Below the pieces are notes generated by a model. That model did not search any database. It had not been told where the DNA came from and saw only the letters and a program-made list of their open reading frames with translations. Position numbers and translations under genes: made by a program. Below, piece by piece: positions 21,451 to 60,754 of a DNA stretch of 64,000 bases. Source of the DNA: Pristiophorus japonicus (taxonomy: Eukaryota). Position 1 is the stretch's first letter. Every line of letters starts with the position of its first letter. The stretch is from contig NC_091984.1 in NCBI RefSeq assembly GCF_044704955.1, positions 143,778,001 to 143,842,000 on the forward strand, in the 5' to 3' direction.

Positions 21451-22177
21451 AATCCATAATACCCTTACCCAACAGGGTGCTGATGGTGCCGGAGAACCAG
21501 CCTGAGCCTCAGATCCTGAACTGTCCACTGCAACACTGGACTGAGACACAGAGGGAGCAGAGTGTGTGCAAAGTGGTGACTGGCTGGTCCGCTGGTCCCC
21601 GAGACCCCTCCCCGACCCCACAGTCCCAACAGGATCCCTCCCCTCGATACCCAGCACCCAGTCCCACCCAGAGCCCCTGACCTCCCCGTGACCCCCATGG
21701 TCCCCCCCACCCACCGATCACGCTGCTCCCCCCCGTTCCACGCACAGTCAGCCCCCGATAAAGCCCACCCTCCCCCGGCCCGGTCTCCCCTCTCCTGGGT
21801 AACAGTCACACACATACACACACCTACAGACAGTGCTGGGTAACAGTCACACACACACACACACACACACACCTACAGGCGGTGCTGGGTAACAGTCACA
21901 CACACACACACACACCTACAGGCGGTGCTGGGTAAGACACACTAACATTCAGCGACATGTACACGGTGATACACTGACTGCTCCTCTCCCTAAGCTGAGG
22001 CCTCACTTGGTACAGTTTTGTGCTGCTGCCATGAGCCACCCGTTAAGGAGAGAGAATGCAACATTGTGACTGTGGCCTCCTGCCCCCAGATTGCCCCCAG
22101 CAGTCAGCACACAGTGCACAGTGCGATCCCACCATCGGGGGCAGCCACAACAACCCCAGTGTGCAGAGTGAGAGCCA

Positions 22178-23288
22178 ACAAGCTCCCCGCTGGAGTGGAA
22201 CTAAACTACAGAACCAGTGGGAACCTGTTCAACCTGCGCAGTCTCCAGGTCAGATCCAAGGCCACTCCAACCTCTGTCGTCGAGCTACAGTATGTGGACG
22301 ATGTCCGCATCTGCGCACATACAGAGGCCGCACTCCAGGACATAGTCGACGTATTTACTGAGGCGTACGAAAGCATGGGCCTTACGCTAAACATCCGTAA
22401 GACAAAGGTCCTCCACCAGCCTGCCCTCATCACACAGCACTGCCCCCAGTCATCAAGATCCATGGCGCTGCCCTGGACACCGTGGACCACTTCCCATATC
22501 TCGGGAGCCACCAATCAACAAGAGCAGGCATCGACGACGAGATCCAACACCACCTCCATGCGCCAGTGCAGCCTTCGGTCGCCTGAGGAAAAGAGTGTTT
22601 GAAGACCAGGCCCTCCAAACTGCCACCAAGCTCATGGTCTACAGGGCTGTAGTAATACCTGCCCTCCAATATGGCTCAGAGACATGGACCATGTACAGCA
22701 GACACCTCAAGTTGCTGGACAAATATCACCAACGATGTCTCTGCTAGATCCTACAAATACCCTGGGAGGACAGGCGCATCAACATCAGCGTCCTCAGTCA
22801 GGCTAACATCCCCAGCATTGAAGCACTGCCCACACTCGATAGCTCCGCTAGGCAGGCCACATAGTCCGCATGCTAGACACGAGACTCCCAAAGCAAGTGC
22901 TCTACTCGGAGCTCCTTCATGGCAAACGAGCCAAAGGTGGGCAGCGGAAACGCTACAAGGACACCCTCAAAGCCTCCCTGATAAAGTGCAACATCCCCAC
23001 TGACACCTGGGAGTCCCTGGCCCAAGACCACCCTAAGTGGAGGAAGTACATCCGACAGGGCGCTGAGCACCTCGAGTCTCGTCGCCAAGAGCATGCAGAA
23101 ACCAAGCGCAGGCAGCGGAAAGAGCGTGCGGCGAATCTGTCCCCACCCACCCCTTCCCTCAATGACTGTCTGTCTCACCTGTGACAGAGTCTGTGGTTCT
23201 CGTATTGGACTGTTCAGCCACAAAAGAACTCACTTCAGGATGGAAGCAAGTCTTTCTTGATTCCGAGGGACTGCCGATGATATGATGA
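22178..23288 (+). mobile_element. 5'-truncated RTE-clade LINE
   Basis: ELQYVDD, GLTLNIRKTKV, RLPKQVLYSEL, GGQRKRYKDTLK; tail tgatga. Absent from the paralogous site near 60310. Confidence 0.9.
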
Positions 23289-24061
23289 GACTGGGAGGGT
23301 TTAATCCCAGCAGCTTTTAGTGTCTCTGTATTTCATCTTGTGCACTCCAGGGGTTTGAGGTCAAATTGATCATTTTAAAATAATTGATAATTGGCTTTGA
23401 ATCAAATCTCCTGCCGACGTGCCATTGATTGACAGCCCACTCAGCCAATCAGGACAGAAACTTACTGAAATGCAGCCAATCCAGCTGAGGGGGAGGAAGG
23501 ACATTTCCAAAGCACTCGCCAGACACAGACTGAATATTAATCACGTTTATTGTCTTTTACAGATTCACATATAGAGAAACAAGATTTGAATAAACAGCCC
23601 AGCGAGAGCGAGCTGGAGACATTCACAGGGAGAATGCAGCTTTATTAAAACAGTTGTGGGGATTTTCTCCACACCGTGAGAATCCTGTCCCTTTAAACGG
23701 GGACTGAACCTTGAATTGTAACAGCAGGGTGAGCAGGGAGGGGGTCTGCTTACTGAAGCGGCACTTCGCAGTTTAACATTAGTTTTACTCTGCTGACAGT
23801 CTTCAGCATCTTCGAGAGGTTTTACTTGGTAGCACGAGTCAACACTGTCCCATCAAACCCTCCCAGGGTTAGATACAGAGTAAAGCTCCCTCGACACTGC
23901 CCCAATAATGTGCCTTACCCCTTGACCCTCAGATGCTTTCCCTGACCAAGTCCCGAGAAGGGAGAGAGTAGAAATGCAGTGCTGACAATGACCTTTGCCC
24001 TCCCGGCTCACCCCCTGTTCTATTTAAAGTTGCGTCTCCCCCGCGGACTGTCCCTGACACA

Positions 24062-24390
24062 CTACGCACATTCTGCTCTCCTGACTCCCTTGCTGAGGGG
24101 AGAGGAGAGGCTCTCGTGGGTGAGGCTGCAGGAGAAGCTGGCGTTGGACTCCCAGTCGGAGCCAGAGAGGGTCAGCAGGCTGCTGACACTGTAGGTGTTG
24201 TCCGAAGCTCGCAGGTAGTCGCTGGTCTGGACCCCGGCCGAAATGGTCGCCCCGTCCTTCTTCCACTCCATCTCCACCGCATCGGGGTAGAAGTGATCGG
24301 CGAGGCACACCAGGGTGGCAGTGCCCTTGGTCGTGACCTCCTCCGGGGAGGGGGGCAGCAGGGTCAGCGTGGGTGGTGTCTTCCCTCGGC
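24062..24390 (-). CDS. IGKC: Ig light-chain (kappa-type) constant exon, orphan copy with intact ORF
   Basis: Acceptor ccctttcag; TLLPPSPEE, ATLVCLADHFYP, WKKDG, YSVSSLLTL, FSCSLTHE, terminal ECA stop. 3 nt differences from 59190-59518. Confidence 0.93.
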
Positions 24391-24426
24391 CTGAAAGGGA
24401 GGAGAAGGATGTTTAATAGGTGTATA

Positions 24427-24465
<39 letters not shown>

Positions 24466-24634
24466 CCGTGTGGGGATAATTCACATCTGATAACGGAGAG
24501 TTGGGTTAATGAACTCCTGGCTGGCGATTAACCATTCGAGGCGAGCAACACTAATTCTTAATCTTCTTTGCCTCGCTTGATAAGTTTAATATAAATATAA
24601 ATGCGTTTGAAGTTAAGGTTTTTAAAAAAAAAAA

Positions 24635-25095
24635 AATCTTTCATTTATATTATGCCTTTCACAACCACCGGACATCTCAAAGCACTTTTCAGCCAATGAA
24701 GTACTTTTGGAGTGTAGTCACTGTTGTAATGTGGGAAACACGGCAGTCAATCTGCGCACAGCAAGCTCCCACAAACATAGATTTGTGATATCGACCTGAT
24801 AATCTGTTCTTTTGTCATGTTGGTTGAGGGATAAATATTGACCAGGGCACCGGGGAGAACTCCCCTGCTCTTCTTCAAAATAGGGGCATTGGATCTTTTA
24901 CATCTTCCTGAGAGGGCAGACGAGGCCTCAATTTAAAATTTCATCTGAAAGACGACACCTCCAACAGTGTTGCACTCCCTCAGCACTGCCCTGCAGTGTC
25001 AGCTTAGATCTTTGTGCTCAAGTGCCTGGTGTGGGACTTGAACCCACAACATTCTGAATCAGAGGCGAGAGTGCAACGCACTGAGCCACGGCTGA
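24635..25095 (-). mobile_element. Full-length Deu-domain tRNA-SINE (paralog of 58490-58950)
   Basis: tRNA-like head, Deu core and tail in reverse orientation. Confidence 0.8.
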
Positions 25096-25329
25096 TGCTC
25101 AAAATCATACTGGGGTGAGGTCAAGGGTGAGGCTACAATTTGCCTCAGTGTACCAGAGTCAGGCAGGGTCACTGCTCCCAATGATTCCGTGACCTCCTGG
25201 AAGGTCAGAGTGCGCGGACAATGGCCGAGGGTCAGGATCAGGGCCCTCCCACATCAATGAAAGAAAGCCTTGAATTTATATAGCGCCTTTCACAACCTCA
25301 GGATGTCCCAAGGTGCTTTACAACCAATT

Positions 25330-28300
25330 GTACACAGGGAGATTTACGAGGATGTTGCCTGGACTGGAAAATTTTAGCTATGAAGAAAGATTGGATAGGC
25401 TGGGGTTGTTTTCTTTGGAATAGAGGAGTCTGAGGGGAGACCTTATTGAGTTGTATAATATTATGAGGGGCCGAGATAGAGTGGATAGGACGGACCTATT
25501 TCCTTAAGCAGATTGGCCAACAACCAGGGCAAAGATTTTAAAGTAATTGCTAGGAGGTTTAGAGGGGATTTGAGGGGAAATGTCTTCACCCAGATGGGGT
25601 GGGGGTCTGGAACTCACTGACTGAAAGGGTGGTAGAGGCAGAAACTCTCATCACTTTTAAAAATTACTTGGATATACACTTGAAGTGCTGTAACCTACAG
25701 GGCTATGGACCAAGAGCTGAAAAGTGTGATTAGGCTGGATAGATCTTTGCCGGCCAGTGCAGACACGAATGGCCTCCTTTCATGCTGTAAATTTCTCTGA
25801 TTCTATGAAGCTCCCAGACTGCAATGAGATCATGACCAGATCCTCAGTTTTAACTATGTTAGTTGTGGGATAAATATTGGCCAGGACACTGGGAAGAACC
25901 CCCATGCCCTTCCAATAATGATTATGAGATCTTTCATGTTCACTTAAGAGGGCAGATGGGACTTCGGTTTAACGTCTCATCTGAAAGACGGCACCTCTGA
26001 CAGAGGGAGGATATGTTTGAAGGATCATCAAATGAGGCCATATGGTTTAAACTGATGAACAGAAAAGGGACGATCACACTGCTGGGAGTGTACTATCGAC
26101 CCCTAAACAGTCAGAGGGAGATAGAAGAGAAAATATGTCGGCAAATTGCTGAGAAGTGCAAAAACAATCGGGCAGCAATAGTCAGGGATTTCAACTCCCC
26201 TCACATTAACTGGGATGGAATCATGTCAAAGGTATAGAGGGTGCAGAATTCTTCAAATGCATTCAGGAGAACTTTTACAGCCAGTACGTAGCAAGCCCAG
26301 CAAGGGAGGCGCGGTTCTGGGCTTAGTTTTTGGGAATGAAGCTGGGCAGGTGGAAGGGAGATCAGTGAGAGAGCATTGTGGTGCTCATGATCATAATTCA
26401 GTTAGATTTAGTGTAGTTATGGAAAAGGACAAAGGTAGAGCAGGAATAAAGGTTCTCAATTGGGGAATGGCCAATTTTACTAAGCTGAGAGGTGATTTAG
26501 CAAAAGTGGGCTGGAAACAGCTACTTGAAGGTAAATCAGTGTCAGAGCAGTGGGAGGCATTCAAGGGGGAGATAGTGAGGGTTCAGAGCAAGTATGTTCC
26601 CTCAAAGGAAAAGGGTGGCACTCCCAAATCTAGAGCCCCCTGGATGTCAAAGGGCATACAGGATAGGTTATGGCAAAAAAAGGAAGCTTATGTCAGATAC
26701 CCAGAGCTAAATACTGCAGAAAGCCCAGAGGTGTATAGAAAGTGCAGGGGTGAAATTAAAAAGGAAATTCGAAATGCAAAGAGAGGGCATGAAAAAATAC
26801 TGGCAAGTAAAATCAAGGAATACTCAAAGATGTTTTATAAATACATAAAGAGCAAGAGGATAACTAAAGAAAGAGTTGGGCCTATTGGAGACCAAAAAGG
26901 TACCCTGTGTGTGGAGGCGGAAGACGGGGGAATTGTTCTTAATGAATATTTTGCATCTGTCTTCACAGAAGAGAGGGACGATGCAGACATTGTAATTAAG
27001 GAGGACAAGTGTGAAATATTAGATGAGATAAACATAGTGAGAGAAGAAGTATTAAGGAGCTTAGCATCTTTGATCGTAGAAAAATCACCAGGCCCGGATG
27101 AAATGTATCCCAGGCTTTTAAGAGAAGCAAGCGGGGATATAGCAGAGGCTCTGACTATCATTTTACAATCTACTCTGGCTACAAGTGTGGTGTCAGAGGA
27201 CTGGAGGACTGCTAACGTGTACATTTGTTTGAAAAGTGAGAAAGGGATAGACCGAGTAATTACAGGCCAGTCAGCCGAACCTTGGTGGAGGGAAAATTAT
27301 TGGAAACAATAATTGTCATATAGAAAGGGACATATTAATCAAGGACAGTCAGCATGGATTTATTCAGGGAAGGTCGTGCCTGACTAACTTGATTTAATTT
27401 ATTGCGGAGATAACAAGGAGAGTCAATGAGTTTTGCATCTTTGATGTCGTACACATGGACTTTTGCAAGGTTTTTGGTGAGGTCTCACATGGCAGAAAAG
27501 TAAAAAGCCCAGGGATCCAAAGGAAAGTGGCAAGTTGGATCCAAAATTGGCTCAGTGGCAGGAAGCAAAGTGTAATGATCAACGGGTGTTTTTGTGACTG
27601 GAAGGCTGTTTCATGTGGGGTTTCAAGCCAGGTTTGCTGATAATACAAAGATGGGAGGAAAAGCAATGTGTGATGAGGATACAAAAAACCTGCAAAAAGA
27701 CATAGACAGGCAAAGTGAGTGGGCAAAAATTTGGCAGATCGAGTATAATGTTGGAAAGTGTGAGGTTATGTACATTGGCAGAAAAAAATTAAAGAGCAAG
27801 TTATTATTCCAATGGAGAAAAATTGCAAAGTGCTGTAGTACAGCGGGACCTGGGGGTACTTGTGCATGAAACACAAAAGGATAGTATGCAGGTACAGCAA
27901 GTGATCAGGAAGGCCAATGGAATCTTGGCCATTAATGCAATGGGGATGGAGTATAAAAGCAGGGAAGTCTAGCTACAGTTATACATGGTATTGGTGAGGC
28001 CATAGCTGGAATACTGCGTGCAGTTTTGGCTTCAATATTTAAGAAAGGATTGACTTGCTTTGGAGGCAGTTCAGAGAAGGTTCACTAGGTTGATTCCAGA
28101 GATGAGGGGGGTTGTCTTTTGAAGAAAAGTTGAGTAGGTTGTGCCTCGACTCATTGGAATTCAGAAGAATGAGAGGTGATCTTATCACATGTAAGATTAT
28201 GAGGGGCCATGCAAGGTGGATGCAGAGAGGATGTTTCCACTGATAAGGGAGACTAGAACTAGGGGGCTTAATCTTATAATAAGTGGCCGCCCATTTAAAA

Positions 28301-30180
28301 CTGAGATGAGGAGGAATTTCTTCTCTCAGAATCTTTAATCTCTAAGTATTCTCTAATCTCCAGATTACTCCCGGTGCCACGAGCTAATGAGTGCAGAAAT
28401 AGGAGGATAGAGCAGATGAATGCGTGACGGGAGAGATGGTGCAGGCGGGATGCTTTAGTTTCCTGAGGCATTGGGACCGCTTCTGGGGGAGGTGGGACCT
28501 GTACAAGCTGACCGGGTTGCTCCTCAACAGAGCCGGGACCAATAGCCACGAGTGGGGCATTTGCTCGTGCTGTTGGGGAGGGTTTAAACTAGCTTGGCAG
28601 GGGGATGGGAACCGGAGAATAGATTCAGTAGGGAGGGGAGTAAAGCTGGAATTAGAAAGCAAAAATAAGGAAAGTGAGTTTGAAGGAGAGAGGAAACAAG
28701 CAGATAAAAAGGGTAAAAAAACAAATTTAAAGGCTCTTTGCCTAAATAACAAAATAGCTGAGTTGATGGCACAAATAGATACAAATGAATATGATCTGAT
28801 AGCCATTACAGAGACGTGGTTGCAAGGTGACCAGGACTGAGAACTAAATACTCAGGAGTCCTTGACAATCCGGAAAGGACAGACAGAAAGGTAAAGTAGG
28901 TGGGGTAGCTCTGTTGACAAAGGATGGAATTACTGCAATAGTGAGAAATTATATTGGCTCAAATGATCAGGATGTTGAAACTGTTTGGGAGGAGATGAGG
29001 AATAATAAGGGGAAAAAGTCACTGGTGGGCATAGTCTATAGGTCCCCTAACAGTAGCAACTCTGTTGGTCGGAGTATAAACCAAGAAATAGTGGGGGCTT
29101 GTAAAAATGGAACAGCAATAATTATGGGTGATTTTAACCTCCGCATTGATTGGATAAATCAAATTGGTCAGGGTAGTCTTGAGGAAGAGTTGATAGAGTG
29201 CATAAGGGACGGGTTCCTTGAGCAGTCTATAATGGAACCACCCAGGGGGCAGGCTATCATAGATCTGGTCCTGTGTAATGAGACAGGATTAATAAACAAT
29301 CTCCCAGTAAAGGATCCCCTTGGACTGAGTGATGATAACATGGTTCAATTTCAAATTCAGATGGAGGGTGAGAAAGATGGATCTCTAACCAGCGTACTAA
29401 GCTTAAATAAAGGAGACTACAAAGGTATAAGTGCAGAGTTGGCTAAAATGGACTGGGAAAATAGATTAAAGTGTAGGACGGCTGATGAACAGTGGCGTAC
29501 ATATGAAGGAGATATTTCACAACTCTCAAGAAAAATATATTCTAGTGGGGAAGAAAGAGTGCAAAAGAAAAGATAGCCATCCGTGGCTAACTAAAGAAAT
29601 AAAGAACGATATCCAATTAAAAACAAGGGCATACAAAGTGGCCAAAACTAGTGGAAGGACAGAAGATTGGGAAGCTTTTAAAAGCCAACAAAGAATGACT
29701 AAAAAAATGATTAAGAAGGGGAAGATAGACGATGAAAGTAAACGAGCACAAAATATAAAAACAGATAGCAAGAGTTTCTATCGGTATATAAAAAGGAAAA
29801 GAGTGGCGAAAGTAAATGATGGTCCCTGAGAGGACAAAACCAGGGAATTAGTGATGAGGAACATGGAGATGGCAGAAACTCTGAACAAAGATTTTGTATC
29901 AGTCTTTACGGTAGAGGACACTGAGATGAGGAGGAATTTCTTCTCTCAGAGGTTTGTAAATCTGTGGAATTTGCTGCCTCAGAGAGCTGTGGAGGCTGGG
30001 TCATTGAATATATTTAAGACAGAGATAGACAGTTTCATAACCAATAAGGGAATAAGGGGTTATGGGGAGCGGGCAGGGAAGTTGACCTGAGTCCATGATC
30101 GGATTGGCCATGATCGTATTAAATGGTGGAGCAGGCTCGAGGGACTGTGTGGCCTACTCCTGCTCCTATTTCGTATGTTC
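25330..30180 (+). mobile_element. Array of CR1 LINE fragments (about 25330-25810, 26003-27620, 27630-28330, 28355-30180)
   Basis: Endonuclease (YRP, GDFN, DLV, SD/DHN) and RT motifs in ORFs 26013-27312 and 28914-29829; CR1 tails. Confidence 0.88.
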
Positions 30181-30279
30181 TTAAAGTGAGGAAGAGTGGG
30201 ACTAATTGGGTAATTCTTTCAAAGAGCCGGCACAGGCACGATGGGCCGAATGGCCTCCTTCTGTGCTGTAAGATTCTAG

Positions 30280-30515
30280 GCTGTGTGCGCGGTTCACAGT
30301 TTTCTCCCGTGTCATTAACAAACGTACAGCTGTGACAACCTCCCTCTTTCACTTCCTCTGTGGGTGAAGTTTCATTCTTCTGATCTGACAATCTCTTCAG
30401 TTATTTTTTGCACGGGGGATTTCTGCTGTGGTCTGAGTCTCTAATAATAACTGTCCAATAAGGCAGAATAACAGCAGCTCGGACCGGCTCGGACAGCGCA
30501 CCCAGGCTCAGTGCT
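30280..30515 (-). promoter_or_regulatory. Candidate B-cell enhancer module, copy 1
   Basis: Reverse-strand GAGGAAGTGAAAG at 30346-30358, plus CAGCTG, GGGGATTTCT and TGTGGT; inverted copy at 40490-40730. Confidence 0.5.
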
Positions 30516-30769
30516 GACCCTGCAACGTCCTCCTCACCAACATCTGGGGACTTGTGCCAAAAGTGGGAGAGCTGCCCCACAGACTAGTCAAGCACCAGTT
30601 TGACATAGTCCTACTCACAGAATCATACCTTTCAGCCAATGTCCTACTGCACCCCCACCACTGACCTTCCTGCCTCCAAAATCCGTGAATCCTTAAACAG
30701 GAACCCGTTTGAAGAACAGTTTGTATTGAAGTTCTGGGTGTGAAAGAGTCTTTGCTGAGAAAACAATCA

Positions 30770-33700
30770 CTATCACGAGAGAAAAAGTTACTCGGTAAAA
30801 TAATGGAACTAAAGGTGGACAAGTACCCTGTACCTGATAGCCTGCATCCTAGGCTCTTAAATGAAGTGGCTGCAGAGATAGTGGATGCATTGGTTGAAAT
30901 GCATCAGAGGGTCTAGTGAGGAGGAGGAACTGAAGGATATCCTTGTTCGGCGGGAAATTGTGTAAGTGAAATTGATGGGATTGAAGGCCGTTACTCCCCG
31001 GGGCCTGATAGTCTGCATCCCAGAGTACTTAAGGATGTGGCCCTAGAAATAGCGGATGCATTTGTGATAATTTTCCAACAGTCTACTGACTCTGGATCAG
31101 TTCCTTTGGACTGGAGGGTAGCAAATGTAACACCACTTTTTAAAAAGGGAGGGAGAGAGAAAGTGGGTAATTATGGACCGGTTAGCCTGACATCAGTAGT
31201 GGGGAAAATGTTGGAATCAATTATTAAGGATGAAATAGCAGCGCAATTGGAAAGCAGTGACAGGATTGGTCCAAGTCAGCATGGATTTATAAAGGGGAAA
31301 TCATGCTTGACAAATCTTCTGGAATTTTTTGAGGATGTAACTGGGAGAGGAGACAAGGGAGAACCAGTGGATGTGGTGTATTTGGGCTTTCAAAAGGCTT
31401 TTGACTAGATCCCACACAGGAGATTGGTGTGCAAAATCAAAGCACTTGGTATTGGGGGTAATATACTGACGCGGATAGAGAACTGGTTGGCAGACAGGAA
31501 GCAGAGAGTCGGGATAAATTGGTCCTTTTCAGAATGGCAGGCAGTGACTAGTGGAGTGCCACAGGGCTCAGTGCTGGGACCCCAGCTCTTTACAATATAC
31601 ATCAATGATTTGGATGAAGGAATTGAGTGTAATATCTCCAAGTTTGCAGATGACACTAAACTGGGTGGCAGTGTGAGCTGTGAGAGGGACGCTCGGAGGC
31701 TGCAGGGTGAATTGGACAGGTTAGGTGAGTGGGCAAATGCATGGCAGATGCAGTATAATGTGGATAAATGTAAGGTTATCCACTTTGGGGGTAAAAATGC
31801 GAAGACAGAATATTATCTGAATGGTGGCAGATTTGGAAAAGGGGAGGTGCAACGAGACCTGGGTGTCATGGTTCATCAGTCATTGAAAGTTGGCATACAG
31901 GTACAGCAGGCGGTGAGGAAGGCAAGTGGTATGTTGGCCTTCATTGCTAGGCGATTTGAGTACAGGAGCAGGGAGGCCTTACTGCAGTTGTACAGGGCCT
32001 TAGTGAGGCCTCACCTGGAATATTGTGTTCAGTTTTGGTCTCCTAATCTGAGGAAGGACGTTCTTGCTATTGAGGGAGTGCAGCGAAGGTTCATCAGACT
32101 GATTCCCTGGATGGCTGGACTGACATATGAGGAGAGACTGGATCAACTAGGCCTGTATTCACTGGAGTTTAGAAGGATGAGATGGGATCTCATAGAAACA
32201 TATAAAATTCTGACGAGACTGGACAGGTTAGATGTGGGTAGAATGTTCCCGATGTTGGGGAAGTCCAGAACCAGGGGACACAGTCTTAGGATAAGGGGTA
32301 GGCCATTTAGGACTGCGATGAGGAGAAACTTCTTCAATCAGAGAGTTGTTAACCTGTGGAATTCCCTGCCGCAGAGATTTGTTGATGCCAGTTCATTAGG
32401 TATATTCAAGAGGGAGTTAGATATGGCCCTTACTGCTAAGGGGATCAAGGGATATGGAGAGAAAGCAGGAAAGGGGTACTAAGGGAATGATCAGCCATGA
32501 TCTTATTGAATGGTGGTGCAGGCTCGAAGGGCCGAATGGCGTACTCCTGCACCTATATTCTATGTTTCTATGTAAATCTACCAAAGTTCCCTAGATTCTG
32601 GAGATGTCCCAGCAGATTGGAAAACCGCAAATATAACGACCCTATTTAAAAAAGGAAGGAGACAGAAAACAGTAAACTATAGACCAGTTAGCCTAACATC
32701 TGTCGTTGGGAAAATGCTGGTGTCCATTATTAAGAAAGCAGTAATAGGACATTTGGAAAAGCATCATTCAGTCAAGCAGAGTCAGCATGGACTTATGAAA
32801 GGGAAATCATGTTTGACACATTTGCTGGAGTTCTTTGAGGAAATAATGTGCAGGGTGGATATGGGGGAACAAGTGGATGCAGTGTATTTGGATTTCCAGA
32901 AGGGATTCAATAAGGTGCCACATAAAAGAATACCGGACACGATAAGAGAAAATGGGGTTGGTGCTAATATATTAGCATGGTTAGAGGATTGGCTAACTAA
33001 CAGAAAACAGAGAGTCAAGATAAATGGGTCATTTTCTGGTCGGCAACCAGTAACTAGTGGGGTTTCACAGGGATCGGTGTTGGGGCCTCACCTATTTACA
33101 ATCTATATTAATAACTTGGATGAACGGAATGAGTGTAAAAAATCGAAGAGCAAATTATTATTTAAATGGAGAAAGATTACAAAATGCTGTAGTACAGAGG
33201 GACCTGGGGGCCCTTGTGTATGAAACACAAAAAGTTAGTATGCAGATACAGCAAGTAATCAGGAAGCAAATGGAATGTTGGCCTTAATTGCAAGGGGGAT
33301 GGAGGATAAAAGCAGAGAAGTCCTGCTACATCTGTACAGGGTATTGGTGAGACCACACCGAGAGTACTGTGTACAGTTTTGGTCTCCTTATGTAAGGAGG
33401 GATATATTTGCACTGGAGGCAGTTCAGAGAAGGTTCACAAGGTTGTTCCTGAGATGAAAGGGCTGACTTATAAAGAAAGGTTGAGCAGGTTAATCAGAAC
33501 ATAAGAAATAGGAACAGGAGTAGGACATACGGCCCCTCCGCCATTAAATAAGGTCATGGCTGATCTGATCATGGACTCAGCTCAACTTCCACGCCCGCTC
33601 CACATATTCTTGTAAACTCCAAAGAGTATGAGAGGTGAACTTATTGAAACATATAAGATTCTGAGGGGACTCGACAAGATAGATGCAGTGAGGATGTTTC

Positions 33701-46567: not shown

Positions 46568-46595
46568 CACTGTGATACACAGCCGTACAAAAACC
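46568..46595 (+). other. V recombination signal sequence, 12-bp spacer
   Basis: CACTGTG + atacacagccgt (12 nt) + consensus ACAAAAACC. Confidence 0.95.
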
Positions 46596-47960: not shown

Positions 47961-47973
47961 AGCCAGGGACGGA

Positions 47974-48012
47974 GGATATTGTACAGCTGTTGCACTGGAA
48001 GCTGTCACTGTG
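47974..48012 (-). other. J recombination signal sequence, 23-bp spacer
   Basis: GGATATTGT (2 mismatches to GGTTTTTGT) + 23 nt + CACTGTG. Confidence 0.9.
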
Positions 48013-48047
48013 GCTCACGTTCGGTAAAGGAACCAAGCTCAGACTGA
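48013..48047 (+). CDS. IGKJ: Single J segment (LTFGKGTKLRL)
   Basis: FGxG motif; phase-1 donor A|GTAAGT in frame with the C exon (A+GC = Ser). Confidence 0.95.
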
Positions 48048-48164
48048 GTAAGTAAACTCCAATGCTCCATTATTAAATCTTTAAATACTGAATCTTTCTA
48101 AGACACAAATGCTGAATATGCGAAGGTGTTTGTTTACATATGATTACACTCGATCCTCCCGTCT

Positions 48165-51100: not shown

Positions 51101-51800
51101 TGGGAGCTTGCTGTGCACAAATTGGTTCCCGTGTTGGCCACATTATAACAGTGACTACACTTCAAAATGTACTTCATTGGCTGTGAAGCACTTTGGAACA
51201 TCCTGAGGTGTGAAAGGTGCTATATAAATGCAGGTCTTTCTTTAATTTCTCTTTTCTTTTTGTTAACTGGGACTCGCACAATTCCCCTGCTGATTAAACT
51301 TGGACCCAGCAGAAAATCCCCAGATCACGAACTAACGTTCCATAAGAACATGGGAATTAGGAGCAGGAGGAGGCCATTTGGCCCCTCGAGCCTGCTCCAC
51401 CATTCAATGAGATCATGGCTGATCTTGTACCTCAACTCCACTTTCCTGCACTGTCCCCATATCCATCGATCCCTTAATATCCAAAAATCTATCGATCTCC
51501 GGAATATACTCAAGGACTGAGCCTCCACAGCCCTCTGGGGTAGAGAATTCCAGAGATTCACCACCCTCTGAATGAAGAGGGTTCTCCTCATCTCAGTCCT
51601 AAATGGCCGACCCCTTATTCTGAGACTGTGACCCCTGGTTCTAGACTTCCCAGCCAGAGGAAACATCCTCCCTGCATCTACCCTGTCAAGCCCTGTCAGA
51701 ATATTGTATGTTTCAATGAGATCCCCTCTCATTCTTCGAAACACTAGAGAATATAGGCCTAATATACTCGATCTCTCCATAGGACAATCCCCCCATCCCA
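48165..51800 (-). mobile_element. CR1 LINE fragments in the J-C intron (about 48165-48570, 49140-51075, 51340-51800), a nested + tail and a SINE piece; 48570-49135 is unique
   Basis: RGDLIE, FTQRVV, LVRPHLEY and KSPGPD motifs. Confidence 0.8.
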
Positions 51801-52740
51801 GATGTCCGTCTGATGTGTCTGCGTGTTTGTCACATGTGACGGAGCAGATGTTCCACCAGCAACACAGGACGTTACCTCAGTGCCCGGCCCACTTTCCCCA
51901 TCCACTTACCACATTCTTACAGGTAAACGGGCTCAGCACCTGCTCTCAGCCGGTGAAATGTCTCCCCTCTACACCACAGGCTGCCCATCATCTGCTCCCC
52001 ATCTCACTCCTGAAGGCACTACCTCTGGCTGGGGCTCAGCTCCTCTCCCCAAGTGGGCTCACTGTCCCAGTGTGAGCCTAGAGACTGAGCTCCCCAAGTG
52101 GGCTCACTGTCCCAGTGTGAGCCCAGAGAGTGAGCTCCCCAAGTGGCCTCATTGTCCCAGTGTGAGCCCAGAGACTGAGCTCCCCAAGTGGGCTCACTGT
52201 CCCAGTGTGAGCCTAGAGACTGAGCTCCCCAAGTGGCCTCATTGTCCCAGTGTGAGCCCAGAGACTGAGCTCCCCAAGTGGGCTCACTGTCCCAGTGTGA
52301 GCCCAGAGACTGAGCTCCCCAAGTGGCCTCATTGTCCCAGTGTGAGCCCAGAGACTGAGCTCCCCAAGTGGCCTCATTGTCCCAGTGTGAGCCCAGAGAC
52401 TGAGCTCCCCAAGTGGGCTCATTGTCCCAGTGTGAGTCCAGTGAGTGAGCGTGTCAGGCTAATCGACCGTGAGGTGTCAGCTGTGGCTCAGTCGCTAGCA
52501 TGCTCGGCTCTGAGAAAAGGAAGATTTGCATTTATATAGCGCCTTTCACGACCACCAGACATCCCAAAGTGCTTTACAGCCAATGAAGTACTTTTTGAAG
52601 TGTACTCACTGTTGTAATGTGGGAAACTCAGCAGCCAATTTGTGCACAGCAAGCTCCCACAAACAGCAATGTGCTGATGACCAAATAACCTGTTTTTGTT
52701 ATGTTGATTGTGGGATAAATATTGGCCAGGACACCGGAGT
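51370..52740 (+). repeat. Direct duplication partner of 63020-64000 (CR1 tail, unique E-box block, 45-bp repeat, SINE)
   Basis: Same junction order and unique sequence cagatgtccgtctgatgtgtc...gaaggcactacctctggctgggg in both copies. Confidence 0.9.
52047..52440. repeat. 45-bp minisatellite, about 9 copies
   Basis: Unit ccccaagtgggctcactgtcccagtgtgagcccagagactgagct. Confidence 0.93.
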
Positions 52741-53097
52741 TTGATTTGAACCCACAATCTCTGACTCAGAAGCGAGGGTGGTTCCAACTGAGCCACTGGC
52801 TGATACCATTCGGCCCATCGTGTCCGTGCCAGCCGACAAAGATCTATCCAGCCTAATCCCACTTTCCAGCTCTGGGTCCGTAGCTCTGTAGGTTACAGCA
52901 CTTCAAGTGCACATCCAAGTACTTCTTAAATGTGGTGAGGGTTTCTGCCTCTACCACCCTTTCAGGTCGTGAGTTCCAGACCCCCACCACCCTCTGGGTG
53001 AAAAGGATTCTCCTCAACTACCATCGAATCATTCTATCAATTACTTTAAATCTGTGACACCTGGTTAGTGACCCTACTGCAGAGGGAAATAGGTCTT

Positions 53098-55020
53098 GGC
53101 CGCATCCTCCGCCAGGATCAACTGTGAAATGTTCCGCACTCCTGGTGGGTCAGTGGCAGGTGGACTCCCTGCCAGAGGAGCTCAGGCCTTTTGCCGAGAG
53201 CACGACCCATCTCCTCTATCTGGGAGTCTACCTTAGCCCTGATGTGGAAGCCTGGCCGGCGAACTGTCAGGAGCTGGAGGCCAAAGTCGCCGCTCACCTA
53301 GGGCGCTGGACAGGACTGCTCCGAGTGCTGTCCTACAGGGGTTCACTGCTATCATAAACCAGCTGGTGGCCGCTATGCTGTGGTACTGGCTGGTCACTTT
53401 GACCCCTCCCCCTGCGTTTGTCGCCAAGATACAGAAGAAGCTGGTGGACATCTTCTGGAACAACAGGAAACATTGGGTCTTTGCTGCGGTTTTAAGTCTC
53501 CCGCTTAGGGAGGGCGGTCAGTCGTTGGTGTGCATCAGTACCCAGCATGCGACTTTCCATCTTCAGACCCTACAGAGATACCTGTACATCGAGCCCCCTC
53601 CTACGTGGCGTGCGTTGGGGACGTATTTCTTCCGCCAGCAGTACTGCCTCAATTATGACACGCAGCTCCTGTTTCTGAGCCTGGGGGGCATCAGGACCCA
53701 CATATGGGGGCTTCCTGTCTTTTACCAGGAATTCATCAGAGTCTGGAACAGTGTCGCCACCAAGCGCAGGTCTCCCCAGTCTGGAGTGGCAGCTGTCCTG
53801 CAGGAGCCGCTGCTCAGGAATCTGTACCTCCATGACCGCGGTTTTAGGTGGCAGGCAGACGAGAGTACTGTGGTTGGCGAGGTGACCAGGGTCAGGGATC
53901 TGCTCGATGGCGGAGGAGTGGGCTGGATGGTGCCAGATGTGGTAGGACGTTGCCTAAACTGGGTCAACATCCAGCGCGCAGCCAATGCCATCGAGTCGCT
54001 AAAAACAGCACTGGTCCCTGACTCCGTTAGGTGTGCCGAGGAGGCTCAAGCACGTGGGCCGATCCCCTCCGAACTGACCCCCGTCCAGACAGAATTCCTC
54101 ATCGCACCAAGACCCGAATCTGTGCCTCCCAACTTGAGCCTCCTCGGGGAAATCCCCTCCGTGCCTTTCAGTTCTGCGTGGAGGGGTTTCCTGTACGGGC
54201 TGTTCCTGCACACTCTCAAACTTGACATCCTCGTCTGCCGTCCGGACACGCCATGGCATACCATCTTGTCATCCGGAGGAGGCGGGGGTCCCCAGTGCAG
54301 TGCACTCTACGTGGGAGTCCTCCCTCTATTTATTGGGGACTTGGCCTGGAGGGTGTTGCACGGAGCAGTCCCATGCAATAAGTTTTTAAGTCGGTTCACG
54401 GGCTCCCAGGCCGCCTGCAATTTCTGCTGTCTGGAAGAGTCTGTGTTCCTTGTTTTTATGGAGTGTGTGAGGTTGCAGCCCCTCTTCTGTTATTTGAAGG
54501 GGCTGCTCCTCAAATTCTGGTTGCACTTCAGTCCCATACTCCTGATCTTTGGGCATCCTGTGCGAAGAGGAGCGGGCAGGTCAGAAGGCCTCGCCGTAGG
54601 ACTGCTCCTAGGCATGGGCAAGGTGGCCATCAGCCGGTCCAGGCAGCGGGCGGTCGAAGGGGTCGTTCATCCTGACTGCCTGCCTCTCTTCCGCGGTTAC
54701 ATCCGAGCCAGGGTATCCCTGGAGCTGGAGCATGCGGTGTCCACCGGTACGCTCGTGGCCTTCTGCGAGAGGTGGGCGCCGGAGGGACTGGAGTGCATCA
54801 TCACCCCCGGCAACCAAATTTTAATTTGATCATTTAATTTTATAGTTTAATTTGTTTAATTTGCCAGTTTTAGTGCCCCCCCTTTTTGGACCAGGGGTCA
54901 CTTGTATAATTTGTGTGTTGCTGCCCTCAAAAAAAAAAGGGTACTGGAAAAATGTATCTTGGTGTGTGACCCTCCCCCCCCTCCCTTCAGGGGGCATTTG
55001 TTTAAAGTGCACAAATAAAA
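53098..55020 (+). mobile_element. 5'-truncated Tx1-clade LINE with a long residual ORF (53366-54829)
   Basis: YLGV, LSYRG, REGGQSLV, AWRVLHGAV and CNFC motifs; A-rich tail at about 55010-55020. Confidence 0.88.
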
Positions 55021-55029
55021 TAGTTGTGG

Positions 55030-57940
55030 GAAATAGGTCCTTCTTAACCACTCTATCTCGGCCCCTCATAGTTTTATACACCTCAATTAAATCTCCCCTC
55101 AGCCTCCTCTGCTCCAAAGAAAATAACCCAGCCTATCCAATCTTTCATCACAACTAACATTTTCCAGTCCTGGTAACATCCTCGTAAATCTCCTTTGTAC
55201 TCTAGCTGTGGCCTAACTAGCATTTGAAACAGTTATAGCATAACCTCCCTGCTCTTATATTCAATGCCACGACTAATAAAGGCAAGTGTCCCATATGCCT
55301 TCTTAGCCACCTTATCTACCTGGCCTGCTATCTTCAGAGATCTGTGGTCCTGCACTCCAAGGTCCCTTTGTTCCTCTACACGTCTCAGGGTCCTACCATT
55401 TAATGTGTCTTCCCTTGCCTTGTTAGCCTTCCCCAAATGCATTACCTCACAGTTCTCTGGATTGAAATCCATTTGCCACTGTTCTGCCCACCTGACCAGT
55501 CCATTTATACCTTCCTGCAGTCTACAGCTTTCTTCCTCACTAGCATCTGCAAACTTCTTAATCATGTTCCCGACATTGAAGTCTAAATCATTGGTGTATA
55601 TTACAAAGAGTAAGGGACTTAGTACTGAGCCCTGTGGAACCCCACTCGAAACAGCCTTCCAGTCACCAAAACGCCCGTTGACCATTACCCTTGGCTTCCT
55701 GCCACTGAGCCAATTTTGGATCCAACTTGCTACTTTCCCTTGGATTCCATGGGCTTTTACTTTTCTGCCACATGAGACTTTGCCAAATGCCTTGCAAAAA
55801 TCCATGTCGACTACATCAAAGGTGCAACACTCATCGACCCTCCTTGTTATCTCAGCAAAAAATTCACTCAAGTTAGTCAGGCACGACCTTCCCTTAACAA
55901 TTCCATGCTGACTGTCCTTGATTAATCTGTCGCTTTCTATATGACAATTTATCCTCTCCCTCAGAATTGTTTCCAATAATTTTCCCACCACCGAGGTTAG
56001 GCTGACTGGCCTGTAATTACTCGGTCTATCCCTTTCTCACTTTTTAAACAAAGGTACACGTTAGCAGTCCTCCAGTCCTCCAGTCCTCCGACACCACACC
56101 TGGAGCCAGAGAGGATTGGAAAATGATGGTCATAGCCTCTGCTATTTCCTCCCTTGCTTTTCTTGACAACCTGGGATACATTTGATCTGGGCCTGGTGAT
56201 TTATCCACTTTCAAAGCTGCTAAGCCCCTCAATACTTCCTCTCTCACTCTGTTTATCTTATCTCATATTTCACACTTCTCCTCCTGAATTACAATGTCTG
56301 CATCGTCCCTCTCTTCTGTGAAGACAGATGCAAAGTATTCACAAAGAACCATACCCACGTCTTCCGTCTCCACACACAGGTTATCTTTTTGGTCTCCAAT
56401 AGGCCCCACTCTTGCCTTGCTCTTTATGTATTTATAAAACATCTTTGGGTTTTCCTTGATATTACTTGCCAATATGTTTTCATGCCCTCTCTTTGCATTC
56501 CTAATTTCCTTTTTAATTTCACCCCTGCACTTTCTAAACTTCTCTGGGCTTTCTGCAGTATTTAGCACTGGGTATCTGACATTAGCTTCCCTTTTTTGCC
56601 TTATCCTACCCTGTATGACCTGTGCCATCCAGGGGGCTCTAGATTTGGGAGTGCCACCCTTTTCCTTTGTGGGAACATACTTGCTCTGAACCCTCACTAT
56701 CTCCCCGTTGAATGCCTCCCACTGCTCTGACACTGATTTACCTTCAAGTAGCTGTTTCCAGCCCACTTTTGCTAAATCACCTCTCAGCTGAGTAAAATGG
56801 GCCTTTCCCCAATTGAGAACCTTTATTCCTGCTCTATCTTTGTCCTTTTCCATAACTACGCTAAATCTAACTGAATTATAATCACTAGCACCAAAATGCT
56901 CTCCCACTGATACCCTTTCCACCTGCCCAGCTTCATTCCCTAAAACTAAGTCCAGAACCGACCCCTCCCTTGTTGGGCTTGCTACGTTCTGGCTATAAAA
57001 GTTCTCCTGAATGCATTTGAAGAATTCTGCGACCTCTATACCTTTGACACTGATTCCATCCCAGTTAATGTGAGGGGAGTTGAAATCCCCGACTATTGCT
57101 GCCCGATTGTTTTTGACCTTCTCAGCAATTTGCCGACATGTTTTCTCTTCTATCTCCCTCTGACTGTTTAGGGGTCTATAGTACACTCCCAGCAGTGTGA
57201 CCGGCCCTTTTATATTCATCATTTTTACCCATATGGACTCATTTGATGATCCTTCGAACATATCCTCCCTCTGTCAGAGGTGCTGTCTTTCAGATGAGAC
57301 GTGAAACCAAAGTCCCGTCTGCCCTCTCAGGTGGACATGAAAGATCCCATAATTACTACTGGAAGGCAAGGGGGTTCTTCCCAGTGTCCTGGCCAATATT
57401 TATCCCACAACAAACATAGTTAAAACTGATGATCTGGTCATGATCTCATTGCAGTCTGGGAGCTTCATAGAATCAGCGAAATTTACAGCATGAAAGGAGG
57501 CCATTCGGCCCATCGTGTCCGCACCGGTCGACAAAGATCTATCCAGCCTAATCCCAGCTCTTGGTCCGTAGCCCTGTGGGTTACGGCATTTCAAGTGTAC
57601 ATCCAAGTACTTCTTAAATGTGCTAAGGGTTTCTGCCTCTACCATCCTTTCAGGCAGTGAGTTTCAGACCCCCACCACCCTCTGGGTGATGACATTTCCC
57701 CTCAAATCCCCTCTAAATCTCCGACCAATCACTTGAGATCTATGCCCTGGTTATTGAGCCCTATGCTAAGTGAAATAGGTCCGTCTTATCCATGCTATCT
57801 GGGGCCCTCATAATTTTATACACCTCAATAAGGTCTCCCCTCAGCCTCCTCTGTTCCAAAGAAAACAACCCCAGCCTATCCAATCTTTCCTCATAGCTAA
57901 AATTTTGCAGTCCAGGCAACATCCTCGTAAACCTTCCTGT
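55030..57940 (-). mobile_element. CR1 LINE ORF2 fragments with SINE pieces
   Basis: ORFs 55233-55991 and 56263-57261 (endonuclease and RT motifs). Confidence 0.88.
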
Positions 57941-58489
57941 GTGCAATTGGTTGTAAAGCAACTTCAGAAGTCCTGAGGTTGTGAAAGGCGCTATATAAAT
58001 TCAAGGCTTTCTTTCATTGAAGTGGGTGCGCCCTGATCCTGACCCTCAGCCATTGTCCGCGCACTCTGACCTTCCAGGAGGTCACGGGATCATTGGGAGC
58101 AGTGACCCTGCCTGACCCCGGTACACTGAGGCTAATTGTAGCCTCACCCTTGACCTCACCCCGGTGCTGCGCAGCAAGCTTTTAAATGCAATCTAGAAGC
58201 TTCTACACCGACACCCAACATGAAGCCTTGCTGAAGTGTGTTTATACAAGTGTGCCGCAATGTTCCCGGATAAAGTTCTCCCGATCTGTGTGTGATCTGA
58301 GCTTTCTCACTGCTGAGCCTGTTTCCCCTGTATCCACCCATCTACAGTTCGAGCTTCCTGCCAGTGAACAGTGTCTTAATGGGACACTCAGTCTTTACCG
58401 ACTCTTACTGTTAACCATTTCAGTGCTGAATGTGTGCCAACCCTGCACTGTAGATGTTTATACAACAGTCCAATATGATTTTGAGTATC

Positions 58490-58950
58490 AGCTGTGGCTC
58501 ACTGCGTTGCACTCTCGCCTCGGATTCAGAAGGTTGTGGGATCAAGTCCCACTCTACGGACTTGAGCACAAAAATCGAGGCTGACACTCCAGTGCAGTGC
58601 TGAGGGAGCGCCGCACTGTCGGAGGCGCCGTCTTTCGGATGAGACGTTAAACCGAGGCCCCGTCTGCCCTCTCAGGTGGATGTAAAAGATCCCATGCCAC
58701 TATTTTAAAGAAGAGCAGGGGAAATCTCCCCGGTGTCCTGGCCAATATTTATCCCTCAACCAACATGACAAAAGAACAGATTATCAGGTCGTTATCACAT
58801 CGCTGTTTGTGGGAGCTTGCTGTGCGCAGATTGGCTGCCGTGTTTCCCACATTGCAACAGTGACTACACTCCAAAAGTACTTAATTGGCTGTAAAACGCT
58901 TTGAGATGTCCGGTGGTTGTGAAAGTTGCAATATAAATGCAATATTTCTT
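58490..58950 (+). mobile_element. Full-length Deu-domain tRNA-SINE (SacSINE1-like)
   Basis: tRNA-like head gtggctca...tcaagtccc, core ggatgagacgttaaaccgaggcccc, tail tataaatgcaa. Confidence 0.82.
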
Positions 58951-59189
58951 TTTTTTTTAATCACCTTAACATCAAACGCATTTATATTTAGATCAAACTG
59001 ATCAAGTGAGGCAAAGAAGATTAAAAATTAGTGTTGCTCGCCTCTAATGGTTAATCACCAGCCAGGAGTTCATTAACCCAGCTCTCCGTTATCAGATGTG
59101 AATTATCCCCACACGGAAACACCCACAGAGACACACACACACACAGACACTAATATACACCTGTTAAACATCCTTCTCCTCCCTTTCAG

Positions 59190-59518
59190 GCCGAGGGAAG
59201 ACACCACCCACGCTGACCCTGCTGCCCCCCTCCCCGGAGGAGGTCACGACCAAGGGCACTGCCACCCTGGTGTGCCTCGCCGATCACTTCTACCCCGATG
59301 CGGTGGAGGTGGAGTGGAAGAAGGACGGGGCGACCATTTCGGCCGGGGTCCAGACCAGCGACTACCTGCGAGCTTCGGACAACACCTACAGTGTCAGCAG
59401 CCTGCTGACCCTCTCTGGCTCCGACTGGGAATCCAACGCCAGCTTCTCCTGCAGCCTCACCCACGAGAGCCTCTCCTCTCCCCTCAGCAAGGGGGTCAGG
59501 AGAGCAGAATGTGCGTAG
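59190..59518 (+). CDS. IGKC: Ig light-chain (kappa-type) constant exon of the V-J-C cluster
   Basis: Acceptor ccctttcag; C1-set Cys and Trp residues; penultimate interchain Cys; in frame with J. Confidence 0.95.
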
Positions 59519-59948
59519 TGTGTCAGGGACAGTCCGCGGGGGAGACACAACTTTAAATAGAACAGGGGGTGAGCCGGGAGGGCAAAGGTCATTGTCAGCA
59601 CTGCATTTCTACTTTCTTCCTTCTCGGGACTGGGTCAGGGAAAGCATCTGAGTGTCAGGGGGTAAGGCAAGTTATTGGGGAAGTGTCGAGGGAGCTTTAC
59701 TCTGTATCTAACCCGTGCTGTACCTGCCCTGGAAGTGTTTGATGGGACAGTGTTGACTCGTGCTGCCAAGTAAAACTTCTCGAAGATGCTGAAGACTGTC
59801 AGCAGAGTAAAACTAATGTTAAACTGCAAAGTGCCGCTTCAGTAAGCAGACCCCCTCCCTGCTCACCCTGATGTTGCAATTCAAGGTTTAGTCCCCGTTT
59901 AAAGGGACAGGATTCTCACGGTGTGGAGAAAATCCTCACAACTGTTTT

Positions 59949-60049
59949 AATAAAGCTGCATTCTCCCTGTGAATGTCTCCAGCTCGCTCTCGCTGGGCTG
60001 TTTATTCAAGTCTTGTTTCTCTAAATGTGAATCTGTAAAAGGCAATAAA
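59949..60049 (+). terminator. Two polyadenylation signals of the C exon
   Basis: AATAAA at 59949-59954 and 60044-60049; both retained in the inverted copy (tttatt at 23641 and 23546). Confidence 0.7.
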
Positions 60050-60754
60050 CGTGAAGAATATTCAGTCTGTGTCTGGCGAGTGCTTTGGAAATGTCCCTCC
60101 TCCCCTTCAGCTGGATTGGCTGCATTTCAGTAAGTGTCTGTCCTGATTGGCTGGCTGGGCTGTCAATCAATGGCACGTCAGCAGGAGATTTGTTTTAAAG
60201 CCAATTATCAATCATTTTAAAACGATCAATTTGACCTCGAACCCCTGGAGTGCACAAGATTAAACACAGAGACACTAAAAGCTGCTGGGATTAAACCCTC
60301 CCAGTCTGAGCATTGGCTCTCACTCTGCACACTGGGGGTGTTGGGGCAGCCCCGATAGTGGGATCGCACTGTGCACTTGTGCTGACTGCTGGGGGCAATC
60401 TGGGGGCAGGAGGCCAACGTCACAACGTTGCATTCTCTCTCCTTAACGTGTGCCTCGTGGCAGCAGCACATAACTGTACCGAGTGAGGCCCCAGCTTCGG
60501 GAGAGGAGCAGTCAATGTCTCACTGTGTTCATATCCCTGAGTGTTAGTGTGTGTTACCCAGCACCGCCTGTAGGTGTGCGTGTGTGACTGTTACCCAGCA
60601 CTGTTATTTCGGCCTGAGGAGTGCTCCGCGGTGATGCGGTCTTTAAGGGACTGTGGGGGAGAAGGGGAGTGGAGGGGTGACCTGGGCGGATGATCAGGGG
60701 CTGACCTTGTGTCGAATGGTGGGGACCAGGGCGATCGGGCGGGGTGTTCTCAGG

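What the first reader, a model, noticed from the sequence alone, without database searches (positions are those of the whole stretch)
21815..60605. V-J enclosed by two inverted, intact C cassettes: a potentially invertible light-chain locus
Seen: two 5-6 kb inverted arms each carry distal intron, splice acceptor, an open C exon, two poly(A) signals and 3' flank. They surround about 28 kb in which I found only one L-V and one J. Known: shark IgL genes are normally V-J-C clusters with one C each, and recombination between inverted repeats flips the interval between them. Inference: a crossover in the intronic part of the arms would place the same V-J upstream of the other C, as an inversion polymorphism or, speculatively, a somatic C swap. 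The simpler alternative is a head-to-head cluster duplication whose left copy lost V-J.
Basis: partly seen in the sequence, partly recalled or inferred. Interest (0 to 1): 0.75.

Follow-up and report, generated by a model that had tools for sequence, protein, structure and literature searches.

The report
Orphan shark antibody C-exon relic
The "second" constant exon beside this shark antibody light-chain gene is the left-over half of a mirror-image neighbouring gene that has no V or J of its own; the pair recurs a dozen times in a large gene array, no copy is flipped, and the spare exon likely stays intact because constant exons copy sequence onto one another.

Summary
The anatomy is real: one intact kappa-type L-V-J lies between two inverted 5-6 kb arms, each with an open C exon. 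The invertible-switch reading is not supported. The window is one slot of a 5.3-Mb array of at least 75 C exons in both orientations (44 full V-J-C, 30 C without J). The C(-)...V-J-C(+) unit recurs 12 times on this chromosome. In 12 of 12 the left and right arms keep their own type on both sides of the exon: no flip. Arms of one unit are 90% alike in the intron, like arms of different units 97-98%. Related copies show the cause at base level: J-C intron joined to V-upstream DNA, with promoter, leader, V and J lost from a head-to-head neighbour, no RSS at the join. A flip would change one residue of 108. The one notable point: C-exon divergence (about 2%) is flat whatever the intron divergence (1-11%), which points to array-wide gene conversion keeping orphan exons open. 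Earlier notes of this scan on other DNA of this array reached the same relic reading. B-cell long reads could not be examined.

The parts
21882..27625 (-). Left arm: 3' part of the J-C intron, C exon, 3' UTR and flank of the J-less (orphan) cluster
22117..22155 (+). RSS-like site (perfect heptamer, 23-bp spacer, nonamer 8/9 in this copy) in the 3' flank of the left C; weak lead
22179..23281 (.). 1.1-kb insertion of dispersed-repeat DNA that marks all left-type arms
23546..23646 (-). Two AATAAA signals of the left C (23646 and 23551)
24062..24390 (-). Left (orphan) C exon, open, AG acceptor, Met at the EMEW site
27625..27626 (.). Join between J-C intron and V-upstream DNA; in this lineage a second deletion of about 0.8 kb has removed the original join
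27626..30900 (-). Relic V-upstream DNA of the lost left gene (LINE fragments plus a 460-bp segment at 30188-30644 that lies 3-6 kb upstream of intact V genes)
40363..40819 (+). The same 460-bp segment upstream of the intact V
42795..55382 (+). Stretch of the intact cluster that corresponds to what the left cluster lost (promoter, leader, V, J, 5' part of the intron; 12.6 kb here)
45917..45970 (+). Octamer-like motif (7 of 8, motif recalled) and TATA box
46030..46078 (+). Leader exon with GT donor
46266..46567 (+). V exon, open, Pfam V-set
46568..46595 (+). V RSS, 12-bp spacer, consensus nonamer, one heptamer mismatch
47974..48012 (-). J RSS, 23-bp spacer, consensus heptamer, two nonamer mismatches
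48013..48047 (+). J segment (FGKG motif) with GT donor at 48048
55635..60604 (+). Right arm: 3' part of the J-C intron, C exon, 3' UTR and flank of the intact cluster
59190..59518 (+). Right C exon, open, Pfam C1-set, Val at the EVEW site
59949..60049 (+). Two AATAAA signals of the right C (59949 and 60044)
60335..60373 (-). Counterpart of the RSS-like site in the right arm (heptamer 60367-60373, poor nonamer)

Best explanation
The left C exon is a J-less relic of a mirror-image neighbouring kappa light-chain cluster whose promoter, leader, V and J are missing, the relic-plus-intact-gene unit recurs 12 times along the array without a flip, and the relic exon likely stays open because gene conversion keeps all C exons of the array alike. 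Steps: (1) shown: two clusters lie head to head, as intact pairs elsewhere in the array still do; (2) shown: in related copies the J-C intron is joined directly to DNA that lies about 3 kb upstream of V in intact clusters; (3) inferred: this was one old, RAG-independent deletion (no RSS, about 1 bp of microhomology, both ends inside LINE-like repeats); (4) shown: the unit was multiplied, with left arms one clade and right arms another; (5) shown: exon divergence is uncoupled from intron divergence; inferred: by gene conversion among array members, with selection acting on the V-J-linked donors; (6) inferred: the intact right cluster rearranges V to J by ordinary deletion and splices to the right C; the left C makes no chain.
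For: Array map: 53 V, 46 J, 75 C (39 +, 36 -) in C8 143.36-148.82 Mb; 44 V-J-C, 1 J-C without V, 30 C without J (lower bounds). 12 units with an opposite-strand J-less C 22-24 kb upstream of V. All 12 left arms match the window's left arm at 95-98% across the 10 kb fetched (one to +2100 only) and all 12 right arms match the right arm at 94-97%. 221 diagnostic sites, none showing a switch of type within a unit. Intron tree of 51 of 76 copies: left clade and right clade each with support 1.0. The join: 6 of 76 copies carry it within the fetched stretch, all 12 left-type copies carry the later deletion across it; in 5 of 5 intact V-upstream regions examined the sequence runs on past the join. The 460-bp V-upstream segment: 39 of the 40 best genome hits lie in the array or on C1231 and C53, which carry the same genes. 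Left vs right consensus: intron 7.5-9.4% apart, exon 1 of 327 sites. Among 72 copies, exon distance is 1.8-2.3% in every bin of intron distance from 1.2% to 11.1%, four-fold sites 3.0-3.7%. A linked two-base variant is scattered over 21 copies of different lineages. Broken exons: 11 of 32 unpaired vs 5 of 44 paired, 3 of 12 left vs 0 of 12 right.
Against: 9 of 12 left exons are still open, and their pN/pS (0.59 on distinct changes, 0.37 on all) is below 1 and close to that of paired copies (0.37-0.43); conversion explains this but expression of the orphans would too. The V-upstream match of the relic DNA is mostly LINE sequence at 83-88%, not far above family-level matches of 79-84%; only the 460-bp segment (91-96%), the order of pieces and the sharp end point make it orthologous. 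Distances among left arms and among their right partners correlate only weakly (Mantel rho 0.20, p 0.10), so the unit was not copied as a clean block, or arms were exchanged between units later. The broken-exon test treats duplicates as independent, and 1-bp gaps may be sequencing errors. One assembly only; exon homogeneity could in part come from read polishing.
Confidence: 0.88

Rival explanations
1. Invertible locus: recombination between the two arms flips the 28-kb interval, as a polymorphism or in B cells, and places V-J before the other C.
For: The geometry allows it. The exon holds perfect matches of 145 and 121 bp between the arms, and the exon is evidently a site of sequence exchange. 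9 of 12 left exons are open.
Against: 0 of 12 units on C8 and 0 of 2 on C1231 are flipped (C1231 may be the other haplotype of some of the same units). No arm is closer to its own partner than to others. Intron arms are 90% alike with an 82-bp longest perfect run. No RSS or switch-like repeat marks the arms' inner ends. The product would differ by one residue. Each arm has far better partners (97-98% over 10 kb) in other units.
Confidence: 0.04
2. The orphan C exons are used: they are transcribed and supply C to V-J of other clusters by trans-splicing, or are made as C-only transcripts, and selection keeps them open.
For: Acceptor, open frame and both poly(A) signals are kept in most left copies; pN/pS below 1.
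Against: Silent sites are as uniform as replacement sites, which selection on protein does not predict (1 or fewer of 82 silent sites differ between consensus sequences against about 6.5 expected, p 0.009). 3 of 12 left copies are frameshifted against 0 of 12 right copies. The promoter is gone, and a review states that promoters appear to be associated only with V (PMC5192425, passage).
Confidence: 0.05
3. Assembly artefact: the left arm is a misplaced or collapsed copy of the right arm.
For: The array is highly repetitive; one 24-kb tandem pair elsewhere (C8 144.07-144.10 Mb) has identical spacing and identical exon alleles.
Against: The arms differ by 8-10% with 221 fixed sites, and 12 distinct copies of the unit, 2-5% apart, plus two on another contig repeat the arrangement. 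No N in the window.
Confidence: 0.02

Closest known systems
Chondrichthyan Ig kappa (NS4 / type III) multi-cluster light-chain genes (PMC2193156, PMC2435157, PMC5192425; passages read)
   Same: One V, one J, one C per cluster in one orientation; about 50-70 clusters in nurse shark, with germline-joined genes and pseudogenes among them; here 44 full clusters on C8, 12/23 RSS pair, C 77-85% identical to proteins named kappa light chain in other sharks.
   Different: Here the clusters are seen as one mixed-orientation array in which 30 of 75 C exons lack a J and one relic-plus-gene unit recurs 12 times; the passages read do not describe such J-less C relics or C-exon conversion.
Teleost IgL clusters with inversional V-J rearrangement (PMC5192425 passage; PMC3014032 search listing only)
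   Same: Ig light-chain segments in opposite orientations in closely linked clusters.
   Different: There V is inverted relative to J-C and RAG inverts at RSSs. Here V, J and the used C are in one orientation, and the inverted C has neither J nor RSS.
Birth-and-death evolution with gene conversion in multigene arrays (general knowledge, recalled); within-species conversion of UrIg2 C domains in sharks (PMC12227049, passage)
   Same: Duplication, partial deletion, re-duplication of relics, homogenised C sequence.
   Different: The homogenised tract here is narrow (about -120 to +560 around the exon start, fading through the UTR) and includes promoter-less copies.
Mammalian kappa-deleting element / RS (PMC2188845, abstract passages)
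   Same: A heptamer with a 23-bp-spaced nonamer-like motif lies 3' of C-kappa in J-type orientation in 58 of 63 copies scored.
   Different: The array's usual nonamer has three mismatches and lacks the A-run; conservation above the flanks and any rearrangement are not shown.

Membership tests
Shark Ig kappa (NS4/type III) cluster - right cluster | One leader-V, one J, one C exon in one orientation | tested here: met
Shark Ig kappa (NS4/type III) cluster - right cluster | 12-spacer RSS on V and 23-spacer RSS on J, facing each other | tested here: met
Shark Ig kappa (NS4/type III) cluster - right cluster | C sequence of the kappa isotype | tested here: met
   77-85% identity to records named kappa light chain in six other shark genera, 45-48% to the next C family in this genome; three automatic names of 98-100% hits say 'lambda-1-like'; no isotype tree built
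Shark Ig kappa (NS4/type III) cluster - right cluster | Multi-copy family of tens of clusters | tested here: met
   44 V-J-C on C8
Shark Ig kappa (NS4/type III) cluster - right cluster | Somatic V-J joining and expression of this copy in B cells | not testable with these tools
   only contigs were served
Functional kappa cluster - left C | Own promoter, V and J | tested here: not met
Invertible (flip-flop) locus | Inverted repeats flanking the segment | tested here: met
Invertible (flip-flop) locus | Both orientations observed | tested here: not met
   0 of 12 paralogous units on C8, 0 of 2 on C1231; other individuals and B cells not seen
Invertible (flip-flop) locus | Arms homogenised with their own partner | tested here: not met
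   own partner 0.90 = other partners 0.90, like arms 0.97-0.98
Invertible (flip-flop) locus | Recombinase target sites at the arms | tested here: inconclusive
   no RSS at the inner ends; a weak RSS-like site 3' of C
Kappa-deleting element (RS/Kde) | 23-spacer RSS downstream of C-kappa | tested here: inconclusive
   heptamer intact in 58 of 63 copies scored (13 of 76 not scored); nonamer 6 of 9 in most, 8 of 9 in 4 copies
Kappa-deleting element (RS/Kde) | Rearranged V-RS or intron-RS joints in B cells | not testable with these tools
   no raw B-cell reads

The most novel reading that the evidence does not exclude
The kappa C exon is a dedicated hot spot of sequence exchange across about 75 clusters, driven by a targeted process (for example AID- or transcription-linked breaks) and not by passive meiotic conversion; it keeps even promoter-less copies open, so the 30 orphan exons act as a maintained template pool, and an exchange resolved as a crossover in a B cell would now and then flip V-J onto the orphan C.
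Probability: 0.1. Interest if true: 0.6.

Novelty: new member of a known kind. Interest (0 to 1): 0.2.

Why it matters
It removes an attractive but unsupported idea (a C-swapping inversion in sharks) and warns that an open, signal-complete C exon is no sign of a working gene in this array: 30 of 75 C exons have no J, so counts of shark kappa genes made from C probes or C annotations may be too high by up to about 40% in this species. The flat exon divergence gives a clean, testable case of exon-limited gene conversion in a primitive Ig locus.

Tried and rejected
Second V, J or RSS in the interval: none. RAG origin of the deletion: no heptamer at either side of the join. Within-unit homogenisation of arms: none. 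Sequencing runs: no RNA holder listed; both layings gave only Logan contigs, which cannot show flips or rare alleles. Three runs of unknown kind from one study covered exon and UTR up to the second poly(A) signal with the Val allele only; this is no evidence on the orphan. Co-duplication of left and right arms as a block: Mantel test not significant. PDB search returned generic Ig chains only. 'V(+) facing C(-)' units elsewhere in the array were checked as possible inversional V-J loci: in the one unit read through there is no J and a 1.15-kb insertion separates V from its RSS. RS/Kde-like site: kept as a weak lead only. Two papers I looked up by id were not held, among them the 2007 four-isotype paper; what I recall of a 2017 paper on shark light-chain isotype exclusion is not used as evidence. 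Six literature searches listed no paper on J-less C relics or C-exon conversion in shark kappa arrays; the library lacks most subscription journals, and no supplements were read.
Full report
What is in the window. Self-comparison confirms two inverted arms, 21882-27625 and 55635-60604, around a 28.0-kb interval. Each arm holds the 3' part of a J-C intron, an AG acceptor, an open C1-set exon, two AATAAA and some flank; the exons differ at three sites, one of them Val/Met. The interval holds one leader-V with a 12-spacer RSS and one J with a 23-spacer RSS, all on the + strand and in frame with either C. tblastn and blastn-short find no second V or J in the window. The C protein is 98-100% identical to three records labelled as a sawshark's, 92% to a dogfish light chain and 77-85% to records named kappa light chain in other sharks; it is the kappa (NS4, type III) isotype, which published work describes as 50-70 V-J-C clusters in nurse shark (PMC2193156, PMC2435157, PMC5192425; passages read).

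The neighbourhood changes the question. The window lies in a 5.3-Mb array on contig C8. Searches with the C exon, the V exon and the J (only the best candidates are scored, so these are lower bounds) give 75 C exons (39 +, 36 -), 53 V and 46 J: 44 full V-J-C, one J-C without V and 30 C without J. The C exons are mostly 95-100% identical in protein. The arrangement of this window, a J-less C pointing away 22-24 kb upstream of a V-J-C, recurs 12 times on C8, twice on contig C1231, and in a few older forms with 29-34 kb spacing.

Test for flipping. I fetched 10 kb round all 76 C exons on C8 (75 in the array, one outside). A crossover in the arms would put a right-type intron on a left-type flank or the reverse. 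All 12 left arms match the window's left arm at 95-98% on both sides of the exon, including the 1.1-kb insertion and the outer flank (one copy only to +2100), and all 12 right arms match the right arm at 94-97%. Of 221 sites that separate the two types, no unit shows a switch (the middle of that printout was cut, the affected rows are covered). The two C1231 units agree but may be the other haplotype of C8 units. Identity of a left arm to its own partner equals that to other units' partners (0.90 and 0.90 in the intron), whereas left-left and right-right identity is 0.96-0.98. An intron tree of the 51 copies with enough coverage puts the 12 left arms in one clade and the 12 right arms in another, each with FastTree support 1.0. 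Two other J-less copies (L048, L064) have a left-type flank with a different proximal intron; neither has a J, so they are exchange products, not flips. The longest perfect match between the window's arms is 82 bp in the intron and 145 and 121 bp at the exon. A flip, if it occurred, would change one residue.

Origin of the orphan. Copies related to the left arm run on 250 bp further in the intron than the window's does and then switch sharply to other DNA. That DNA is what lies about 3 kb upstream of V in intact clusters: in 5 of 5 intact V-upstream regions examined the match ends at the same base and the intact sequence continues towards V. In the window's own coordinates the join links 42794 to 55383, so promoter, leader, V, J and the 5' intron (12.6 kb here, partly later insertions) are what was lost. 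There is no heptamer at either end, about one base of microhomology, and both ends lie in LINE-like repeats; a RAG-independent deletion is inferred. Six of 76 copies show this join within the fetched stretch; all 12 left-type copies carry a later deletion of about 0.8 kb across it, at window 27625/27626. A 460-bp segment at 30188-30644 on the - strand repeats the one at 40363-40819 upstream of the intact V; 39 of its 40 best genome hits lie in the array or on two contigs carrying the same genes, several 3-6 kb upstream of a V on the same strand. Intact head-to-head pairs still exist in the array. Against this: much of the relic DNA is LINE sequence matching at 83-88%, so orthology rests on that segment, the order of pieces and the sharp end.

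Why the orphan exon is still open. Left and right consensus sequences differ by 7.5-9.4% in the intron, 1.6% in the UTR and at 1 of 327 exon sites; no diagnostic site lies between -120 and +559. Among 72 copies, exon distance stays at 1.8-2.3% whether introns differ by 1.2% or 11.1%, and four-fold sites behave alike; close relatives even differ more in the exon than in the intron. A linked two-base variant is spread over 21 copies of unrelated lineages. Selection on protein cannot do this for silent sites or for promoter-less copies; gene conversion among array members can (inferred). It is not directed to the partner arm. Orphans do decay somewhat more: 11 of 32 unpaired against 5 of 44 paired exons are broken (Fisher p 0.022, duplicates not independent, 1-bp gaps may be errors), 3 of 12 left against 0 of 12 right. 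pN/pS of left copies (0.59 or 0.37 by the count used) is below 1, which conversion from selected donors predicts but which does not exclude use. The Met allele proposed as a marker also occurs in four V-J-linked copies. A polishing artefact of the assembly cannot be excluded without raw reads.

A side lead. A perfect RSS heptamer with a 23-bp-spaced nonamer-like motif lies about 0.85 kb past the stop codon in J-type orientation (window 22117 and 60367), the position of the mammalian kappa-deleting element (PMC2188845, abstract passages). The heptamer is intact in 58 of 63 copies scored, but so is most of the flank, and the usual nonamer has three mismatches; the window's left copy and three others reach 8 of 9. 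I rate it a chance site at about 95%.

Reads. No RNA holder was listed and only contigs were served, so B-cell flips and orphan transcripts are untested.

Earlier notes of this scan, consulted after my reading was formed, describe the same kind of relic on other DNA of this array; they are unchecked AI notes and add no weight.

Verdict. Real anatomy, ordinary cause: a relic of cluster turnover, multiplied with its intact neighbour, kept looking functional by conversion of the C exon. Interest 0.2.

Noticed in passing
window 22117-22155 and 60335-60373; 63 of 76 C flanks on C8: RSS-like site 3' of C-kappa in J-type orientation (heptamer intact in 58 of 63, nonamer usually 6 of 9, 8 of 9 in four copies); resembles the position of RS/Kde, probably chance.
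   Followed up: partly
G000:C8 144184972, 145037944, 146563386, 147156776 (L077-L080, L012): Repeated 'V(+) facing C(-)' units 16-17 kb apart without J; in the one read through, a 1.15-kb insertion separates V from its RSS, and the C carries the same deletion join as the window's orphan lineage.
   Followed up: partly
G000:C8 146963984-146964296 and 148180062-148180374: V and J adjacent in the assembly: apparently germline-joined kappa genes; the first has no C exon found within 30 kb downstream.
   Followed up: no
G000:C8 144.07-144.10 Mb (L010, L011): Two V-J-C clusters exactly 24,002 bp apart with identical exon alleles: very recent tandem duplication or an assembly duplicate.
   Followed up: no
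window 30188-30644 and 40363-40819: 460-bp segment conserved at 94-99% upstream of V genes and in relics across the array; also found alone between clusters, marking further lost genes; may hold a regulatory element.
   Followed up: partly
G000:C8 159.52-159.56 Mb: An outlying kappa V(-) and J-C(+) pair 10.7 Mb from the array, V pointing away from J.
   Followed up: no
G000:C8 177.8-179.5 Mb: A second group of light-chain-like C exons (40-48% identity to this C) on the same contig, likely another isotype.
   Followed up: no
G000:C1231, C53, C113, C1278: Unplaced contigs with the same genes; C1231 mirrors part of C8 147.9-148.5 Mb with structural differences, so possibly the other haplotype.
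   Followed up: partly
window 504-3367: Broken frames that look by eye like gag, reverse transcriptase and RNase H of an LTR retroelement; observed only.
   Followed up: no
window 52045-52450 and 63694-63783: 45-bp minisatellite (9 copies) in the J-C intron, with a 2-copy version in a duplicated piece downstream of the right C.
   Followed up: no
window 8225-9264: Frames that look by eye like a Harbinger-type transposase nuclease fragment.
   Followed up: no
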